DNA of 64,000 bases from an uncultured Fibrobacteraceae bacterium (GCA_964389015.1 CAYMCR010000008.1:312-64311), one strand, 5' to 3'; positions 58,817 to 64,000 are shown, numbered from the stretch's first letter. Notes: generated from the sequence alone by a model not told the origin. Made by a program: numbers and translations.

Positions 58817-59485
58817 ATGCCGCCTGAACTCGATACTTTCGACTGCACGGTCACCCTGCCGGACTGGAGACTTCATCTCGCCTCATTGACCGTGGCCCGA
58901 AATCGAGATCTCGGCAACGTGCTGGACATGGCCACACAAGGCGCAATGTCCGAGATGAAGCGCAGCTTCCCCGACAACCGGCTGAATGCTCACACCACGA
59001 TATCCGCCCTCCGCAGCCGGCTTCCGGAACTCGGCATCGACCCCGACGCGACCCCGCTCTGTTCCGAACTGATGCTCCGCGACATAACCGCCGCGGGAGG
59101 CATCCACCGCGGCTGTCTGGCCTGGGAATTCCTATCCATGCTCACCATCAGGTCCGCTGCGCCCTGGGCGGCGATGGATCGTCGCTCGCTGCAGACGCCG
59201 CTCGTCTTCAGGCTGGGCGAAACCGGTGAGACGCTGCCCCTGGGCGATGGAAGTCTCGACTGTGCGGGATTACCCGTGCTGGCCGATCAAACAGGTGTGC
59301 AGGCATCCCCCTGGACCCTCGGCACACCGGAGGCGCTGCAGGACCTCGACGAAGTGGTCTTTCTGTGCTTCCTGCCCGCCGACCTGTTCAGATCCGTGAA
59401 TCCCCGCGACCACCTCGGCCGCGTCATGTGGTTGACATGGGCTTACCGTTTCGTCTTCGAACGGTCGTGTCGTTTCAGGGGATAG
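58817..59485 (+). CDS. hypothetical protein (possibly B3/4-domain-like)
   Basis: 222 aa coding-like ORF. The family guess is weak. Confidence 0.35.
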   Translation: MPPELDTFDCTVTLPDWRLHLASLTVARNRDLGNVLDMATQGAMSEMKRSFPDNRLNAHTTISALRSRLPELGIDPDATPLCSELMLRDITAAGGIHRGCLAWEFLSMLTIRSAAPWAAMDRRSLQTPLVFRLGETGETLPLGDGSLDCAGLPVLADQTGVQASPWTLGTPEALQDLDEVVFLCFLPADLFRSVNPRDHLGRVMWLTWAYRFVFERSCRFRG

Positions 59486-59509: not shown

Positions 59510-61582
59510 TCACGCTTCATCGAGGACGCCGTCGGCGGGGACCTCGATGCGGAAGGTCGAGCCGCGACCTTCCTCCGCTTCGATGGTCAACGTCCCCCTG
59601 TGCTCCTTGACGATCTTCTGCACGACCTGGAGTCCCAGACCGGTCCCCTTGGATCCCTTGGTGGAGTACATGCCGCCCTTTATCTTGGCGATCGTCTGCG
59701 GGCTCATGCCCATGCCGTCATCGTGAACGGCGAAGTAGGCGTTTCCCCCCTCGTACCCCAGTTCGACCACGATGTCGCCTTCCTCGCCCTTGGCGAAGGC
59801 ACCCACGGCGTTGTTGACCAGGTTGGACAGGCATTGATGAAGCGCGTGACGGTCCAGCATCACGCTCCGGTCGGATCCCGGACCCTCGACTCGAATGCTG
59901 ATCTTGCTCGCCGACGGGAACCCGACGCTGGCGATCACATCCTCGACCAGTTTCCTGGGATCGCAGGGGGCCATCACCGGCTTGCGCTCCTTGGCGAAGT
60001 TAAGCAGATCGTTGGCCAGATCGGAGATGATCTTCACGTTGCGCTCGATCATGCCGAAGCCGGTGGCCATCTTCCGCTCGTCCTGTCGCTTCTTCCCGGC
60101 CCGGTAGACGTAGACGCCGCCGTTGAAGCCATCCATGATGTTCTTGATGGAGTGACTGATGCCCGCGGCCGCCTGCCCCGCCGCCGCCAGCCGCTCCGAC
60201 TGGATCAGGTCCTCGCGGAGTTGCTTGATCTCACGCATGTCCTCGAAGAAGAATACCTTGCCGATGTGAATGCCCCGCTCGTACAGGCTGATACCGGCCA
60301 CGCGGATATCGATCCGGGAACCGTCGACTCGTTTGATCGTCGCCTCCCGGGGCGCAAAGCCGCGCACGCGCCGGACCGGCTCGTGTGAGATGGGGATATC
60401 CATGGCCTTCTCGAGCTCCTCGTCCAGGAACTCATGCCATTGTTTTCGGTTGAGCACCTCCGCGCTCGGGACGCCCACCAGTTCTTCGGCCACCTGATTG
60501 AAGATGTTGACGATCCCGTCGGCGTTGGTGGCGATGATGCCGTCGAAGGAGTACTGGATCAAACGCTTCTGGAAATCGTCGGCATCGACCAGCAGCTCCT
60601 GGGACGCCTTGAGCGAGTTGGTCATGTGCCGGATGGAATCCGCGAGCTGGACCACCTCGTCGCCACGGTGTGTCTGATAAACCTCGCAGGTGCGGCAGCC
60701 CTCCAGCTTCTGGGGAAAACGCGGCTCGAATCCCTCGCACGGCGTGTCGTCGATGTACCAGCACTGCTGGGTGAAGTTCTGGTACGCATCACAATCGGTG
60801 CGCTGGCAGTTCTTGATTTCCCAGCAGTTGACATGAACGCCGAAATCGAAGCTGGGATCGAGATTACCGGCGCTGATCTCGTCGGCCACTCTCGTCAGTT
60901 CCTTCAAAGGCGCAACGGCCTTGCGGATCGCGACCCGGGCGACGCCGATCACCAGGGCTCCCGGCATCACCATGAGGATGATGGCCATCAAGGCCGCTCG
61001 CGAAGCGACCCGATCGCCGTACCGGGTCGACACTCCGATGTAGAGTCCGCCGACACGCTCGCCGTTCAACGAGAGGACATAACTGAATTCGTCGAAATCA
61101 CGTGGCTTCCAACCATAGCGGGAAGGGACTGCCTCGTGTGTGGCCAGGTAGGCTTGCAGTCTCGGCGTGTCCGAAGGCGGACGGGCGTGGCAGGCGAGCA
61201 GTTCATCCGCCGCATCAACCACTACGAGATAAGAGATCTGGTCGTCCAGGTCCAGCACCCGGTCCAGCAACACCGGCAACTCGCCCGCCGGCTCATTTGC
61301 CACGACCTTACCGAGGGGAGCGGCCCACATTTCGTAGGACGCCTCGGCCCGGCTGGACAGCATGCCGGAAACCGCATCCTGGGTAGCCCAGTAGACCGCG
61401 ATCAGCACCACGGAACACAGGAACACCATCAGGAAGGTGAAGAAGAGGAGAATCTTGTTTTCCAGCAGAAACTTGCGGTAGATGGGTACAGCTCGTCTGA
61501 CATCCCAGCTCATGACAGCGTGGGCTGGCTGGTTTGCCCGATGAGCTGTACCACGATCGTCATCCGTGGAGTACCTCGCCAT
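59510..61582 (-). CDS. sensor histidine kinase: TM-HAMP, 7-Cys insertion, PAS, HisKA, HATPase_c
   Basis: H-box AAAGQAAAGISHSIKN, G-box GTGLGLQVVQKIV, a PAS region, and the cysteine cluster CWEIKNCQRTDCDAYQNFTQQCWYIDDTPCEGF ... CRTCEVY. The start may be M24 (61513). Confidence 0.8.
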   Translation of the reverse strand: MARYSTDDDRGTAHRANQPAHAVMSWDVRRAVPIYRKFLLENKILLFFTFLMVFLCSVVLIAVYWATQDAVSGMLSSRAEASYEMWAAPLGKVVANEPAGELPVLLDRVLDLDDQISYLVVVDAADELLACHARPPSDTPRLQAYLATHEAVPSRYGWKPRDFDEFSYVLSLNGERVGGLYIGVSTRYGDRVASRAALMAIILMVMPGALVIGVARVAIRKAVAPLKELTRVADEISAGNLDPSFDFGVHVNCWEIKNCQRTDCDAYQNFTQQCWYIDDTPCEGFEPRFPQKLEGCRTCEVYQTHRGDEVVQLADSIRHMTNSLKASQELLVDADDFQKRLIQYSFDGIIATNADGIVNIFNQVAEELVGVPSAEVLNRKQWHEFLDEELEKAMDIPISHEPVRRVRGFAPREATIKRVDGSRIDIRVAGISLYERGIHIGKVFFFEDMREIKQLREDLIQSERLAAAGQAAAGISHSIKNIMDGFNGGVYVYRAGKKRQDERKMATGFGMIERNVKIISDLANDLLNFAKERKPVMAPCDPRKLVEDVIASVGFPSASKISIRVEGPGSDRSVMLDRHALHQCLSNLVNNAVGAFAKGEEGDIVVELGYEGGNAYFAVHDDGMGMSPQTIAKIKGGMYSTKGSKGTGLGLQVVQKIVKEHRGTLTIEAEEGRGSTFRIEVPADGVLDEA

Positions 61583-61979
61583 CCGTGGCCTCGCCCGAGA
61601 GCACGCCGTTGACCACCTTCATCAATTTATCCGGGTCAATGGGTTTCTCGACAAAACCGTCCGGTTTACGCGTCCGATACCGGTCAACGATATCGCCCCA
61701 ATCGATACCGAGCTGATCCTTGATACCGGTGACCATCACCATGGGAATGTTTTTGGTGGCATCATTGGCGCGCAGCTTCGTGAAGAGCTGGATCCCCGTC
61801 CGCCCCGGCATCATCAGGTCGATCAGGATGATGTCGGGCGGTGACTCCAGGATGAGCTGTTCACCCGAAACCGCATCGTTGGCGACCCGCACCGAGAAAT
61901 CGTTCTCCTCGAGAATGGACGACAGGAAAGTCGTCAGGTCCACCTCGTCATCGATTACCACGGCAGTTCTCGCTGGCAT
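61560..61979 (-). CDS. stand-alone response-regulator receiver (CheY-like)
   Basis: 139 aa. VVIDDE ... DIILIDLMMPGRTG ... KNIPMVMVTG receiver motifs (Asp acceptor in IDLMMP). Confidence 0.85.
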   Translation of the reverse strand: MPARTAVVIDDEVDLTTFLSSILEENDFSVRVANDAVSGEQLILESPPDIILIDLMMPGRTGIQLFTKLRANDATKNIPMVMVTGIKDQLGIDWGDIVDRYRTRKPDGFVEKPIDPDKLMKVVNGVLSGEATDGEVLHG

Positions 61980-63376
61980 TACTCAACCTCCTCTGCGATA
62001 TGTGCTGCGGCATCGCCGGCAGCACCCTGCTCTTCGGTTTCCAGGACGATGGCTTTGCCGAACAGGTCGAACACCCCGCCGACCTTCACACCGGTCTCGT
62101 AGTGCTCCATGAGCTGCATGACCTGGCGCTTGCAGTTGGCGCACGGCGCGGCGCAGTAGTTGGCCTTCGTGGTGGCGATCTGGTCCACCTTCACCTTGCC
62201 GACCTTCATGCGGTAGTCGAGGAACGTGCCCTCCAGCTTGGCGACCTTCTCCGCTCCGTCCATGACGGCCAGGCCGCCGCCGCCGCCGCAACACCAGTTC
62301 TCGGTCCGGTTGGGCGTCATCTCGATGAAGTTGTCGGTCATGGCGTTGATCAGGTTCCGCGGCTCCTCGAAGATGCCGGTGGAACGCGCGAAGTTGCAGG
62401 GATCGTGGTAGGTCACGATCTCGTCCACCTTCGACTTGTCGAACTTGAACGCCCCCTTCTGCAGGTATTCGTCGGCCAGTTCGAAGATGTTGGTGGTCTC
62501 GAAGGGGTTGTTGTTCTTCGAAGCCGTCGGGCCCATCCGCTTGGCGATCCTGTAGGCGTGACCGCACTCGCCGATGACCAGCTTATTCACGCCCAGCTCG
62601 ATGCAGGCGTCGTGGGCCACCTGGTTCTTGCGGTTCATGTGCGGATCGTCACCGGTGAACAGGCCGAAGTTCGCGCCGTCGAACGCCTTCGACGACATGG
62701 TCCAGGTGGTCCCGTCGTACACCTCCAGAGCCTTGAAGAAGACGGCCACGCCCATGTGGGTCTCCGGGAAGGAGATGAGATCTGCCGAGGCGGGGATGAA
62801 CAGTATGTCCGCTCCCTCCTTGTCGATGGGTATCTCGACGTCCAGTCCCCAGTCGTCCTTGACCTCCTCGCACAGGAAGCGGCAGGCCTCCACGAACGCC
62901 TTGTAAGTCTGACCCTCGTCGTTCCCCGTCTCGTCGGAGATCCGCTGGGTTTCGGACATCATGAAGGGCGATTTGCCCAGCGCATGGACCACGGCCCGGC
63001 CCTTGCGCGTGATTATGGAATTGTCGATGCCGAAGGGACAGAACTTCGCGCACCGGCGGCAACCGGAGCATTCGTAGAAATCACGCTGCCAGATCTCCAC
63101 CTCTTCGGGACTGATGTCGCGGGCGGCCCCGACGGCCTTCAGCACCTGGCCCCAGGTGGAACCATAGCGCTTGTAGAGCTTCCGGATGAGATCCGAGCGT
63201 TTCGCCGGATTGGCCCGGCTCTCCGGGATGGTCTGGGCCACGTGACACTGATCCGAGCAGATCCCGCACTTGGCGCAGATATCCATGTACAGCTGCAGTA
63301 CCTGTGGTCCGTTCTTGAGGGCCTTGACCTGGTCGATGACCTTCTGCAGGTCCGTGTCGTTATGGTTTGTTTCCAT
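61979..63376 (-). CDS. HdrD/DsrK-like Fe-S oxidoreductase (two [4Fe-4S] ferredoxin motifs + two CCG domains)
   Basis: CAKCGICSDQC and CSGCRRCAKFCP ferredoxin motifs. CCG-domain cysteines (..WCCGGGGG.., HDPCNF). Confidence 0.8.
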   Translation of the reverse strand: METNHNDTDLQKVIDQVKALKNGPQVLQLYMDICAKCGICSDQCHVAQTIPESRANPAKRSDLIRKLYKRYGSTWGQVLKAVGAARDISPEEVEIWQRDFYECSGCRRCAKFCPFGIDNSIITRKGRAVVHALGKSPFMMSETQRISDETGNDEGQTYKAFVEACRFLCEEVKDDWGLDVEIPIDKEGADILFIPASADLISFPETHMGVAVFFKALEVYDGTTWTMSSKAFDGANFGLFTGDDPHMNRKNQVAHDACIELGVNKLVIGECGHAYRIAKRMGPTASKNNNPFETTNIFELADEYLQKGAFKFDKSKVDEIVTYHDPCNFARSTGIFEEPRNLINAMTDNFIEMTPNRTENWCCGGGGGLAVMDGAEKVAKLEGTFLDYRMKVGKVKVDQIATTKANYCAAPCANCKRQVMQLMEHYETGVKVGGVFDLFGKAIVLETEEQGAAGDAAAHIAEEVE

Positions 63377-63377
63377 C

Positions 63378-63965
63378 TTAGTAGTCCTTTGCTAGCAAGG
63401 TTCTGCTGAAGAAAATGCCCGGAATGTGCAGGAACTTGCCGAAGGGCAGGTAGATCAACAGCAATTGCACAGCGAAGTAATGCATCAGGAACAGGTGGTC
63501 CTGAGGCACCATGGTTTCGCTGGTACTGAACAGAGTGCCGAAGTACAACTGCACCTGGGTGATGTCGTAGTGCGCGAAGAAACGCATCATGTTACCGGTC
63601 ACCAGGATGAAAAGCAGCAACAGCAGTACTCCGTAATCCTCGCCGGAGGACATTTCGCGGACCCGCGTGAGTGTGAATCGGCGGAACAGCAGTAACAGGC
63701 AACAGACCAGGGCCAACACGCCCGCGATGCCACCGCCCCAGGCACTGATGGAGTGAACGGTTTCTTCCGACAGTCCCAGCAACACACGCAGGGGCCAGTC
63801 GGTGATCAGACGGGAATGACCCAAGACGATCAGGACGATCGCGGTGTGAAACGGCCAGGTCGTCAGCCAGAGGGATTTGTTTTCCTTCCGGAAACTGCTG
63901 AACCAGACCACCTCTCCCATCACCTTCTTGAACAGCTGAGAGCCATCGGCCGCGGAGGGGAACAA
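63378..63965 (-). CDS. NarI-type membrane b-cytochrome (DsrM/HdrE-like) partner of the HdrD-like protein
   Basis: 195 aa with 5 TM helices and conserved His in helices (FHTAIVLIVLGHS, FFAHYD). 2-nt spacing to the downstream Fe-S subunit gene. The N-terminus may extend toward the window edge. Confidence 0.65.
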   Translation of the reverse strand: MFPSAADGSQLFKKVMGEVVWFSSFRKENKSLWLTTWPFHTAIVLIVLGHSRLITDWPLRVLLGLSEETVHSISAWGGGIAGVLALVCCLLLLFRRFTLTRVREMSSGEDYGVLLLLLFILVTGNMMRFFAHYDITQVQLYFGTLFSTSETMVPQDHLFLMHYFAVQLLLIYLPFGKFLHIPGIFFSRTLLAKDY

Positions 63966-64000
63966 GGCGATGTTGCCAACAGCGGCCTTTTGCCATCGCC

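What the first reader, a model, noticed from the sequence alone, without database searches (positions are those of the whole stretch)
59510..63965. Histidine kinase with a cytoplasmic 7-cysteine insertion next to an HdrDE/DsrMK-like membrane complex
The kinase has a cysteine-dense segment with spacings C-x5-C-x4-C-x9-C-x8-C-x14-C-x2-C, lying between the membrane/HAMP region and the PAS domain. This resembles a metal- or Fe-S-type redox-sensing module rather than a typical ligand-binding domain. It is co-oriented with a stand-alone receiver protein and sits directly downstream of a NarI-like cytochrome b plus an HdrD/DsrK-like CCG-domain Fe-S protein. This suggests a redox-responsive two-component circuit tied to a quinone-linked disulfide or heterodisulfide reductase.
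Basis: partly seen in the sequence, partly recalled or inferred. Interest (0 to 1): 0.55.

Follow-up and report, generated by a model that had tools for sequence, protein, structure and literature searches.

The report
Sulfur-respiration sensor module with two-CW kinase
The cysteine-rich stretch is a copy of the catalogued but unstudied "two-CW" domain, wedged inside the kinase's HAMP signal relay. The kinase belongs to a six-gene cassette built around a spare DsrMK-like quinol/disulfide reductase, and that cassette recurs across many phyla almost only in microbes that carry dissimilatory sulfite reductase.

Summary
The kinase carries seven cysteines spaced C-x5-C-x4-C-x9-C-x7-C-x13-C-x2-C, not x8 and x14. 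All seven are invariant in 34 orthologues. The segment is cytoplasmic.

It is a slightly divergent member of NCBIfam NF045718, the "two-CW domain" (31.1-34.8 bits across three scans; cut-off 35). It lies inside the HAMP connector, between helices AS1 and AS2, not merely between HAMP and PAS. This scan has met two-CW domains before on other DNA (58 earlier notes, at least 52 genomes).

What is new here is the context:
- **Conserved cassette.** It holds a B3/4-like protein, an Rrf2 with three cluster cysteines, a dihaem NarI-type cytochrome b, a DsrK-like CCG protein, a stand-alone receiver and the two-CW kinase. It recurs in about 38 species-level genomes of several phyla, with unrelated flanks.
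- **Link to sulfite reductase.** 34 of 37 of these genomes encode DsrA. In the window's own phylum, all 7 carriers fall among the 19 of 151 genomes with dsrA.
- **A paralogue, not the main complex.** The genome has genuine dsrAB-dsrC-dsrMKJOP and aprA elsewhere.
- **Fused sister family.** A large sister family fuses the same kind of receiver to the DsrK-like protein.

The metal content and the signal sensed are untested. I rate it a new variant of a known kind (Hmc/Tmc-style loci), of moderate interest.

The parts
58817..59485 (+). 222-aa divergent B3/4-domain protein, convergent with the kinase; sixth conserved member of the cassette
   Evidence: tblastn finds it beside the kinase or the Rrf2 gene in 28 of 38 orthologous loci. 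8 of 28 orthologues hit Pfam B3_4, best E 1.5e-5. Atlas feature score is 0.95 to B3_4 clusters. There is a weak profile hit to PDB 9mkl, a B3/4 protein. The window copy itself has no Pfam hit.
59510..61582 (-). Sensor histidine kinase: TM1, periplasmic segment, TM2, HAMP with nested two-CW, PAS, DHp, HATPase. The longest ORF is 690 aa; the likely start is Met24 at 61513 (667 aa).
   Evidence: In the 667-aa numbering, the H-box His454 and the ATPase motif residues are invariant in 34 orthologues.
61370..61474 (-). Transmembrane span 1 (residues 37-71)
   Evidence: Kyte-Doolittle scan. The N-terminus before it is rich in Arg and Lys.
60923..61009 (-). Transmembrane span 2 (residues 192-220)
   Evidence: It runs straight into HAMP AS1.
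60848..60928 (-). HAMP helix AS1 and the start of the connector (residues 219-245)
   Evidence: Pfam HAMP profile positions 3-29. In the model this helix and AS2 superpose on Af1503 HAMP: 4cq4, Z 6.2, rmsd 1.7 over 69 residues.
60659..60844 (-). Two-CW domain (residues 247-308) with seven invariant Cys at 253, 259, 264, 274, 282, 296 and 299, and Trp at 254 and 275
   Evidence: NF045718 scores 33.1, 31.1 and 34.8 bits against a cut-off of 35. Conservation is shown. The AlphaFold2 model of the domain alone has pLDDT 90. No solved fold or sequence relative was found.
60608..60670 (-). HAMP helix AS2 (residues 305-325)
   Evidence: Pfam HAMP profile positions 32-52, E 0.03 on the fragment. Structural match to Af1503 HAMP.
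60230..60565 (-). PAS domain (residues 340-451)
   Evidence: Pfam PAS, PAS_9 and PF24820.
59534..59854 (-). HATPase_c catalytic domain (residues 577-683)
   Evidence: Pfam PF02518, 82 bits.
61560..61979 (-). Stand-alone receiver (139 aa) with no output domain; its start overlaps the stop of the DsrK-like gene by one base
   Evidence: Pfam Response_reg, 68 bits. The best NCBIfam hit is the DVU0259 family, 70 bits, below the cut-off of 160. Asp54, Lys112 and Pro113 are invariant, and Asp10, Asp11 and Thr84 are kept in at least 90% of 35 orthologues. It aligns over its full length (89 bits) with the receiver fused to DsrK-like proteins.
61979..63376 (-). DsrK-like cytoplasmic Fe-S protein (465 aa): two CxxCxxCxxxC motifs plus one CCG domain
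   Evidence: Pfam Fer4_8 and CCG. NF045796 DsrK scores 335 bits against a cut-off of 400. Cys34, 37, 40, 44, 103, 106, 109, 113, 271, 327, 362, 363, 412 and 415 are invariant in 31 orthologues.
63378..64000 (-). NarI-type dihaem cytochrome b (DsrM-like); the gene continues about 85-133 nt past the window end
   Evidence: Pfam Nitrate_red_gam. NF038037 DsrM scores 83 bits against a cut-off of 300. The full ORF is read in L001. His96, 106, 218 and 236 are invariant in 30 orthologues, with spacings x9 and x17. The Rrf2 gene follows at window-equivalent 64210-64725, outside the window.

Best explanation
The cysteine insertion is a two-CW domain (NCBIfam NF045718) spliced into the connector of the kinase's HAMP domain, on the cytoplasmic side of the membrane.

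The kinase is one part of a conserved accessory cassette of organisms that carry dissimilatory sulfite reductase. The cassette holds a B3/4-like protein, an Rrf2 repressor with the three cluster-binding cysteines, a dihaem NarI-type cytochrome b (DsrM'), a DsrK-like protein with two [4Fe-4S] motifs and a complete CCG site (DsrK'), a stand-alone receiver, and the kinase.

Proposed working, all inferred rather than shown:
1. DsrM'K' is a spare menaquinol-linked reductase for a cytoplasmic disulfide or trisulfide, most simply DsrC. It runs beside the main DsrMKJOP complex.
2. The two-CW domain holds a metal centre, either Fe-S or Zn-thiolate. Its redox or sulfur-dependent state changes the packing of the two HAMP helices it bridges, and so changes kinase activity.
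3. The kinase phosphorylates the receiver.
4. The receiver has no DNA-binding part and acts on DsrK' itself, tuning electron flow.
5. The Rrf2 protein sets transcription of the cassette.
For: **Domain identity.** NF045718 is the only family hit for the segment, at 33.1, 31.1 and 34.8 bits. All 131 relatives gathered with the segment as query hit the same model.

**Nesting in HAMP.** The two halves of Pfam HAMP flank the segment. The flanking helices of the pLDDT-90 model match Af1503 HAMP. The majority consensus of the wider family also shows an AS2-like stretch after the domain.

**Conservation.** Seven of seven Cys are invariant in the orthologues.

**Cassette.** Of 38 orthologous loci, the receiver is found in 35, DsrK' in 33, DsrM' in 30, Rrf2 in 25 and the B3/4 gene in 28. 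Most misses lie at contig ends, and the flanking genes are unrelated.

**Competence of the redox parts.** All CCG and ferredoxin cysteines of DsrK' are invariant. Four His of DsrM' are invariant at NarI-like spacing. The three Rrf2 Cys (C-x6-C-x5-C) are kept in 28-29 of 29 copies.

**Link to Dsr.**
- DsrA scores above its cut-off in 34 of 37 carrier genomes.
- In 151 genomes of the phylum, 19 have dsrA and 7 have the kinase, all 7 among the 19.
- The own genome has dsrAB, dsrC, dsrMKJOP and aprA on contig C21.

**Receiver to DsrK' link.**
- A sister family fuses a receiver to the C-terminus of a DsrK-like protein. The best 120 clusters all carry CCG plus Response_reg.
- This genome holds one such fusion on C23.
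- The cassette receiver aligns full-length with the fused receivers (89 and 67 bits). It aligns only over its N-terminal half with another receiver of the same genome.
- 36 of 48 genomes with the fusion also have dsrA.
Against: - No cofactor, ligand, phosphotransfer or enzyme activity has been measured for any part.
- The two-CW domain occurs in many signalling proteins that have no DsrMK-like neighbour (and earlier notes of this scan). Its sensing role therefore cannot depend on DsrM'K'.
- Seven cysteines do not fit a simple 4+4 ligand count. The invariant His after the last Cys in this subfamily is not kept family-wide.
- DsrK' and DsrM' score below the curated DsrK and DsrM cut-offs, so DsrC as substrate is a guess.
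- The association with dsrA could partly reflect shared ancestry or shared habitat. Related genomes are not independent samples.
- A fusion in a sister family shows that a receiver can work with a DsrK-like protein, not that this receiver does.
Confidence: 0.5

Rival explanations
1. DsrM'K' is the input device rather than the target. It passes the redox state of the menaquinone pool to the cysteines or cluster of the two-CW domain, or of the Rrf2 protein, by thiol/disulfide chemistry at its CCG site. The cassette would then be a quinone-pool sensor, with its real output lying elsewhere.
For: Three cysteine- or cluster-bearing sensory proteins sit with a disulfide reductase in one conserved cassette. 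Both the kinase and DsrM' are membrane proteins. The cassette has no obvious metabolic substrate gene of its own. The paralogous fused cassette also has a kinase with Cys-rich PAS inserts.
Against: Two-CW domains are common without any DsrMK-like neighbour. DsrK' is more conserved (up to 90% identity) than the kinase (up to 80%), as expected of an enzyme with a fixed substrate. No direct evidence of contact exists.
Confidence: 0.2
2. This is an ordinary transcriptional two-component system. The two-CW domain is a structural zinc knot, sensing is done by the periplasmic or PAS domain, the receiver feeds an unlinked partner, and the reductase genes are simply co-regulated neighbours.
For: Small Cys-rich domains are often structural Zn sites. 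The kinase has a PAS domain and, in this genome, a periplasmic segment of about 120 residues. No fold or sequence link to Fe-S families was found.
Against: The periplasmic segment is missing or much shorter in many orthologues, while the HAMP/two-CW core is invariant. A structural knot placed exactly in the HAMP connector of most family members would still gate signalling. The receiver lacks any output domain and is specifically like receivers fused to DsrK-like proteins.
Confidence: 0.2
3. The cysteine pattern and the gene neighbourhood are chance features of one metagenome bin or an assembly artefact.
For: The genome is a fragmented metagenome assembly of 178 contigs, and the contig ends 1 kb past the window.
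Against: The same gene order and invariant cysteines recur in dozens of independent assemblies from several phyla. Four public DNA runs hold 96-98% of the stretch's sampled words.
Confidence: 0.01

Closest known systems
NCBIfam NF045718, 'two-CW domain-containing protein' (domain model, 80 positions)
   Same: Seven cysteines in the same order, two Cys-Trp pairs, a length of about 55-60 residues, and occurrence in signalling proteins. It is the only family hit for the segment, and all 131 relatives gathered here hit it.
   Different: The score lies just under the curated cut-off (31.1-34.8 against 35). The loop before the final CxxC is one residue shorter (x13 instead of x14). The model carries only a descriptive name. 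I found no paper and no solved structure.
hmc operon of Desulfovibrio vulgaris Hildenborough: hmcE (NarI-related cytochrome b), hmcF (cytoplasmic CCG/GlpC-type Fe-S protein), then rrf1 and rrf2, regulators of hmc expression (Keon et al. 1997, as cited in 10.1101/2023.11.02.564894)
   Same: The same quartet of gene kinds sits side by side: a NarI-type cytochrome b, a CCG Fe-S protein and an Rrf2 regulator, plus rrf1, which I recall to be a receiver-type regulator (not checked here). All occur in an organism with Dsr-type sulfur respiration.
   Different: There is no cytochrome c, HmcB, HmcC or HmcD here. HmcF and HmcE models score far below their cut-offs (221 against 750; 42 against 275). The cassette adds a two-CW kinase and a B3/4 protein. 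I did not fetch the Desulfovibrio locus, so this resemblance rests on the literature.
tmc locus of D. vulgaris, with the Rrf2-family regulator TmcR (DVU0269) (10.1101/2024.09.27.615472) and the NCBIfam 'DVU0259 family' receiver model
   Same: A TmcBC-type (DsrMK-like) pair sits beside an Rrf2 regulator. The cassette receiver's best NCBIfam hit is the DVU0259 family.
   Different: TmcB scores 228 against 735, TmcC 41 against 240 and DVU0259 70 against 160, so none is a member. I recall that two-component genes lie next to the tmc genes. Neither that nor whether any tmc-locus protein carries a two-CW domain was tested here.
DsrMK(JOP) complex and the extra DsrMK-only copies described in some Deltaproteobacteria and Clostridia (PMC10504309)
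   Same: A dihaem cytochrome b plus a CCG protein with all catalytic cysteines. DsrK is the best-scoring curated family. In a quick tree the cassette proteins group nearest this genome's true DsrK. It co-exists with a full DsrMKJOP.
   Different: Scores lie below the DsrK and DsrM cut-offs, whereas the genome's true DsrK scores 741 bits and its true DsrM 504. It is not next to dsrAB or dsrC. It is wired to a two-component system, an Rrf2 gene and a B3/4 gene, which the paper read here does not describe.
Canonical HAMP domain (Af1503; PDB 4cq4, 2l7h)
   Same: AS1 and AS2 match in sequence profile and in the model: Z 6.2, rmsd 1.7, 31-34% identity.
   Different: The short connector is replaced by a 60-residue cysteine domain.

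Membership tests
Two-CW domain (NCBIfam NF045718) | Score at or above the curated cut-off of 35 bits | tested here: not met
   33.1 bits on residues 235-320, 31.1 bits in the genome scan and 34.8 bits on the 62-residue domain. This is marginally under the cut-off, with E of 1.6e-8 to 1e-6.
Two-CW domain (NCBIfam NF045718) | Seven ordered cysteines with two Cys-Trp pairs, spaced about 5-4-9-7-14-2 | tested here: met
   5-4-9-7-13-2 here. 76 of 229 domain copies share this spacing, and 68 have 5-4-9-7-14-2. Cys and Trp conservation is shown.
Two-CW domain (NCBIfam NF045718) | Sequence continuity with undoubted members | tested here: met
   A search with the segment alone found 388 clusters at E up to 1e-3. 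All 131 aligned relatives hit NF045718, best E 9.2e-17.
HAMP domain (Pfam PF00672) | AS1, connector and AS2, directly after the last transmembrane helix | tested here: met
   Profile positions 3-29 and 32-52 match on either side of the insert. The model's helices superpose on Af1503 HAMP. The connector holds the insert.
DsrK of DsrMKJOP (NCBIfam NF045796, equivalog) | Score at or above 400 bits | tested here: not met
   335 bits. The genome's true DsrK on C21 scores 741 bits.
DsrK of DsrMKJOP (NCBIfam NF045796, equivalog) | Two [4Fe-4S] motifs and the CCG cysteines CXnCCGXmCXXC | tested here: met
   Cys34, 37, 40 and 44; Cys103, 106, 109 and 113; Cys327, 362, 363, 412 and 415. All are invariant in 31 orthologues.
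DsrK of DsrMKJOP (NCBIfam NF045796, equivalog) | Encoded with dsrJOP, dsrC or dsrAB | tested here: not met
   The neighbours are a receiver, a kinase and an Rrf2 gene. The dsr genes lie on another contig.
DsrM (NCBIfam NF038037) / NarI family (Pfam PF02665) | DsrM score at or above 300 bits; NarI-type four-His haem ligation | tested here: inconclusive
   DsrM scores 83 bits, so it is not an equivalog. Pfam Nitrate_red_gam scores 82 bits, above its cut-off. His96, 106, 218 and 236 are invariant with NarI-like x9 and x17 spacing (the NarI comparison is from my own knowledge). It is a member of the NarI family, not of DsrM proper.
HmcEF / TmcBC | Scores above the curated cut-offs, with a cytochrome c partner gene | tested here: not met
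   HmcF 221 against 750, TmcB 228 against 735, HmcE 42 against 275, TmcC 41 against 240. No cytochrome c gene lies in the cassette.
Fe-S-binding Rrf2 regulators (IscR/NsrR type) | Rrf2 fold plus three closely spaced C-terminal Cys | tested here: met
   Pfam Rrf2, 128 bits. C92-x6-C99-x5-C105 is kept in 28-29 of 29 cassette-linked copies. Cluster binding itself cannot be tested here.
Phosphorylatable receiver (Pfam PF00072) | Acidic pocket, phospho-acceptor Asp, and the conserved Thr and Lys | tested here: met
   Asp54 and Lys112 are invariant, and Asp10, Asp11 and Thr84 are kept in at least 90% of 35 orthologues.
Known Fe-S or Zn sensor modules | Sequence or fold likeness to a characterised metal-binding domain | tested here: inconclusive
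   No Pfam family covers the segment. There are no PDB sequence hits at E up to 10. Foldseek and VIA-align gave no match for the domain model.

The most novel reading that the evidence does not exclude
The cassette is a dedicated regulatory organ of Dsr-type sulfur respiration. A two-component system senses through a metal centre inside a HAMP domain. Its output is not transcription but direct control of a membrane quinol:disulfide oxidoreductase, with the phospho-receiver acting as a detachable regulatory subunit of DsrK' (permanently fused in the sister family). This would also give the orphan two-CW domain its first functional context.
Probability: 0.3. Interest if true: 0.75.

Novelty: new variant of a known kind. 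Interest (0 to 1): 0.55.

Why it matters
- **Regulation of sulfur respiration.** Dissimilatory sulfite and sulfate reduction has recently been found in many uncultured phyla, and almost nothing is known about how these organisms regulate it. This cassette is nearly confined to dsrAB-bearing genomes. It is a concrete candidate for that control and a possible extra genomic marker of Dsr-based metabolism.
- **A handle on the two-CW domain.** The domain is widespread in signalling proteins of anaerobes but has no known cofactor, signal, structure or literature. This is a conserved, testable partnership with a defined redox enzyme.
- **A possible new kind of output.** If the receiver does act on the DsrK-like enzyme, a two-component system would be steering respiratory electron flow after translation. 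I know of no well-described case of that.

Tried and rejected
- **Complex prediction.** DsrK' with the receiver, each with its own alignment, scored 0.02 against a mark of 0.32. This gives no verdict and is no evidence either way.
- **Fold searches of the domain-only model.** Foldseek against PDB found no match at E up to 10, and VIA-align against 48,161 chains found none with Z of 2 or more. A PDB sequence search with the family profile found nothing. These blanks do not show that the fold is new.
- **Fold search of the HAMP-plus-domain model.** It matched only HAMP structures through the flanking helices.
- **Longer relatives of the receiver.** The search returned only five unrelated hybrid kinases. 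Its word filter is too coarse for receivers, so it is uninformative.
- **Rrf2 operator.** Short inverted repeats around the Rrf2 gene and the Rrf2/DsrM' spacer in three loci showed nothing shared. The promoter and terminator scans were at or below shuffle expectation.
- **Expression.** No RNA holder is listed; only four DNA runs of one marine metagenome study hold the stretch.
- **Literature.** No paper holds 'two-CW domain'. Searches on DVU0258, DVU0259, DVU0262 and TmcR, and on DsrK with histidine kinase, gave context only.
- **DsrD and DsrH.** Neither was found in the genome. The DsrD search also found nothing in the control genomes, so it says nothing.
- **Internal stops in some DsrK' tblastn matches.** These were checked as possible selenocysteine codons. 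They are simply the true stop codons, with the alignment running on past them.
- **DsrK-family tree.** This is the quick version with long branches and a single true DsrK. It is used only as a rough guide.


Full report
**1. What is in the sequence**

Four co-oriented genes lie on the minus strand at the window's end:
- a histidine kinase (59510-61582; the gene called in public data starts at Met24 and gives 667 aa);
- a 139-aa receiver (61560-61979);
- a 465-aa Fe-S protein with a CCG domain (61979-63376);
- a NarI-like cytochrome b (from 63378, running off the window).

Pfam and NCBIfam confirm these assignments. The kinase has seven cysteines within 47 residues. Hydrophobic spans at residues 37-71 and 192-220, followed directly by HAMP, place the segment in the cytoplasm.

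**2. What the cysteine segment is**

The only family that matches it is NCBIfam NF045718, the "two-CW domain". It scores 33.1, 31.1 and 34.8 bits in three scans, against a cut-off of 35.

A full-library search with the 73-residue segment found 388 clusters at E up to 1e-3. These include proteins with two copies and stand-alone proteins of 67-69 aa. All 131 relatives that I aligned hit NF045718. The commonest spacings are 5-4-9-7-13-2 (this subfamily) and 5-4-9-7-14-2. It is therefore a slightly divergent member of a catalogued but unnamed-by-function domain.

In 34 orthologous kinases (37-80% identity), all seven Cys, both following Trp and a His five residues after the last Cys are invariant. 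Family-wide, six Cys are invariant and one is kept in at least 90%. That His is not kept family-wide.

No paper holds the domain's name. This scan has already met the domain in at least 52 other genomes, so the domain itself is not a new find.

**3. Where it sits**

Pfam HAMP matches residues 219-245 with profile positions 3-29, and residues 305-325 with positions 32-52. The domain is therefore spliced into the HAMP connector.

An AlphaFold2 model of residues 205-340 (131-sequence alignment, pLDDT 90) has two long helices. They superpose on Af1503 HAMP structures (4cq4: Z 6.2, rmsd 1.7, 69 residues, 32% identity).

The domain alone also folds confidently (pLDDT 90, mostly loops with three short helices). 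It has no match in the PDB by Foldseek, by an exhaustive VIA-align pass or by profile sequence search.

The wider family consensus keeps an AS2-like stretch after the domain, so nesting in HAMP is the usual setting. A metal-dependent change in this knot would act directly on the packing of AS1 against AS2. That last step is inference.

**4. The neighbourhood is a conserved cassette**

The contig ends 1 kb past the window. In that kilobase, upstream of the cytochrome b gene, lies an Rrf2 regulator. No dsrJOP, qmo or flavoprotein genes are there.

Three distant kinase homologues on long contigs have the same order (Rrf2, NarI-like, CCG protein, receiver, kinase) with unrelated flanks.

A scan of one genome per species found 38 orthologous loci, labelled on deposit as:
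- Fibrobacteraceae-like
- Acidobacteriota
- Planctomycetota
- Thermodesulfobacteriota, Desulfobacteria and Syntrophales
- Myxococcota
- Zixiibacteriota
- others

Several of these labels are automatic and unreliable. None is from a cultured strain.

tblastn finds the receiver in 35 loci, the CCG protein in 33, the cytochrome b in 30 and Rrf2 in 25. Most gaps are at contig ends. Rrf2 lies either upstream and co-oriented, or downstream and convergent.

The 222-aa gene convergent with the kinase (58817-59485) is a sixth member, present in 28 of the 38 loci and often paired with Rrf2. It is a divergent B3/4-domain protein.

**5. The parts look functional**

- **DsrK-like protein.** It keeps both CxxCxxCxxxC motifs and all five CCG cysteines, plus Cys271, in all 31 orthologues. 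It is the most conserved protein of the set, at up to 90% identity.
- **Cytochrome b.** It keeps four His with x9 and x17 spacing, as in NarI (the NarI comparison is from my own knowledge).
- **Receiver.** The phospho-acceptor Asp and the Lys are invariant, and the acidic pocket and the Thr are kept in at least 90%.
- **Rrf2.** It keeps C-x6-C-x5-C in 28-29 of 29 copies, the pattern of cluster-binding IscR/NsrR-type regulators.

**6. It is a paralogue of the real DsrMK, and it tracks DsrAB**

The CCG protein scores best with the DsrK model but below its cut-off (335 against 400). The cytochrome b is far below the DsrM cut-off (83 against 300).

Contig C21 of the same genome carries, in one block, dsrA and dsrB, dsrC, and dsrM (504 bits), dsrK (741), dsrJ, dsrO and dsrP, with all five DsrMKJOP subunits and dsrA above their cut-offs. 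It also carries aprA and a third DsrK-like gene.

Of 37 genomes with the cassette, 34 encode DsrA above its cut-off. In an even sample of 151 genomes of the window's phylum, 19 have dsrA and 7 have the HAMP/two-CW kinase. All 7 are among the 19, and none is among the 132 without dsrA. Relatives are not independent, but the cross-phylum count points the same way.

Published work notes that some Deltaproteobacteria hold an extra DsrMK-only copy beside DsrMKJOP (PMC10504309). I found no description of the regulatory wiring seen here.

**7. A fused sister family**

In one Desulfobacterota locus a second, divergently transcribed cassette encodes an Rrf2, a 231-aa membrane protein without a Pfam hit, a DsrK-like protein with a C-terminal receiver, and a soluble PAS kinase whose PAS domains carry CxC...CxxC inserts.

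This fusion family is large: the best 120 clusters all carry CCG plus Response_reg. The window's own genome has one on contig C23, followed by PAS kinases. 36 of 48 genomes with the fusion also have dsrA.

The cassette's stand-alone receiver aligns over its whole length with the fused receivers (89 and 67 bits). This includes the C-terminal stretch with P-[DE]-G-[FY]-[VL]-[DE]-K-P-I. With another receiver of the same genome it aligns only over the N-terminal half (43 bits).

In the window, the receiver's start overlaps the DsrK-like stop by one base. This is Rosetta-stone evidence that the receiver works on or with the DsrK-like protein. It is suggestive, not proof.

**8. Most likely mechanism and rivals**

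My best reading (about 0.5) has five parts:
- DsrM'K' is an auxiliary quinol-linked reductase for a cytoplasmic disulfide or trisulfide, most simply DsrC.
- The kinase senses cytoplasmic redox or sulfur status through a metal centre in the HAMP-nested two-CW domain.
- The kinase phosphorylates the receiver.
- The receiver modulates DsrK'.
- Rrf2 sets transcription.

What is shown: the identity and conservation of the parts, the gene order, the Dsr association and the fusion. What is inferred: the cofactor, the signal, the substrate and the receiver's target.

Rivals:
- The reductase is the input that reports the quinone pool to the sensor cysteines (0.2).
- The domain is a structural Zn knot in an ordinary transcriptional system (0.2).
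- Artefact (excluded).

**9. Comparison with known systems**

The nearest known layouts are the Desulfovibrio hmc operon and the tmc locus.
- The hmc operon ends with hmcE (NarI-related), hmcF (CCG-type), and then rrf1 and rrf2 as regulators (10.1101/2023.11.02.564894, citing Keon et al. 1997).
- The tmc locus has the Rrf2-family TmcR (10.1101/2024.09.27.615472).
- The cassette receiver's best curated hit is the DVU0259 family, below its cut-off.

The cassette fails every curated Hmc and Tmc cut-off and has no cytochrome c. It is therefore a new variant of this kind of locus rather than a member. It adds a two-CW kinase and a B3/4 protein.

**10. Verdict**

The domain is already catalogued and has been seen repeatedly in this scan. 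The conserved, Dsr-linked cassette and the receiver-to-DsrK' fusion logic are the parts worth following up.

Noticed in passing
G000 contig C23, locus L083:1537-9071 (minus strand): A second, paralogous cassette in the same genome. It holds a 263-aa protein with no Pfam hit, a 603-aa DsrK-like protein fused to a C-terminal receiver, a PAS-PAS kinase, a stand-alone receiver and a PAS-GAF-PAS kinase.
   Followed up: partly
G000 contig C21, locus L081:2811-20000 and C21:22461-24296: A complete dissimilatory sulfur block: dsrAB, dsrC, dsrMKJOP and aprA. It also holds a third DsrK-like gene (617 aa, 325 bits) beside a CoA-disulfide-reductase-like flavoprotein and a CysG-type siroheme synthase. The tblastn match to dsrA reads through one TAA.
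   Followed up: partly
window 58817-59485 (+): A divergent stand-alone B3/4-domain protein, related to the PheRS beta-subunit editing domain, is conserved next to the cassette in 28 of 38 loci. Its role beside a redox module is unexplained.
   Followed up: partly
L006:461-1837 (minus strand): The soluble kinase of the fused cassette has two PAS domains. Each carries a four-cysteine insert (C-x-C ... C-x2-C-P), which may be another cytoplasmic metal or redox sensor type.
   Followed up: no
L028:886-7001: In one Deltaproteobacteria MAG, about 6 kb separate the receiver from the two-CW kinase, unlike every other locus. This may be an insertion.
   Followed up: no
L010:482-1480 and L021:203-1179: Two loci carry tandem duplicated Rrf2 genes upstream of the cassette. 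In one copy (L021:760-1179) the third cluster cysteine is replaced by Trp.
   Followed up: no
G000 contig C122:2536-2832: A second DsrC/TusE-family gene lies away from the dsr locus. It could be TusE or an alternative substrate for the DsrK-like paralogues.
   Followed up: no
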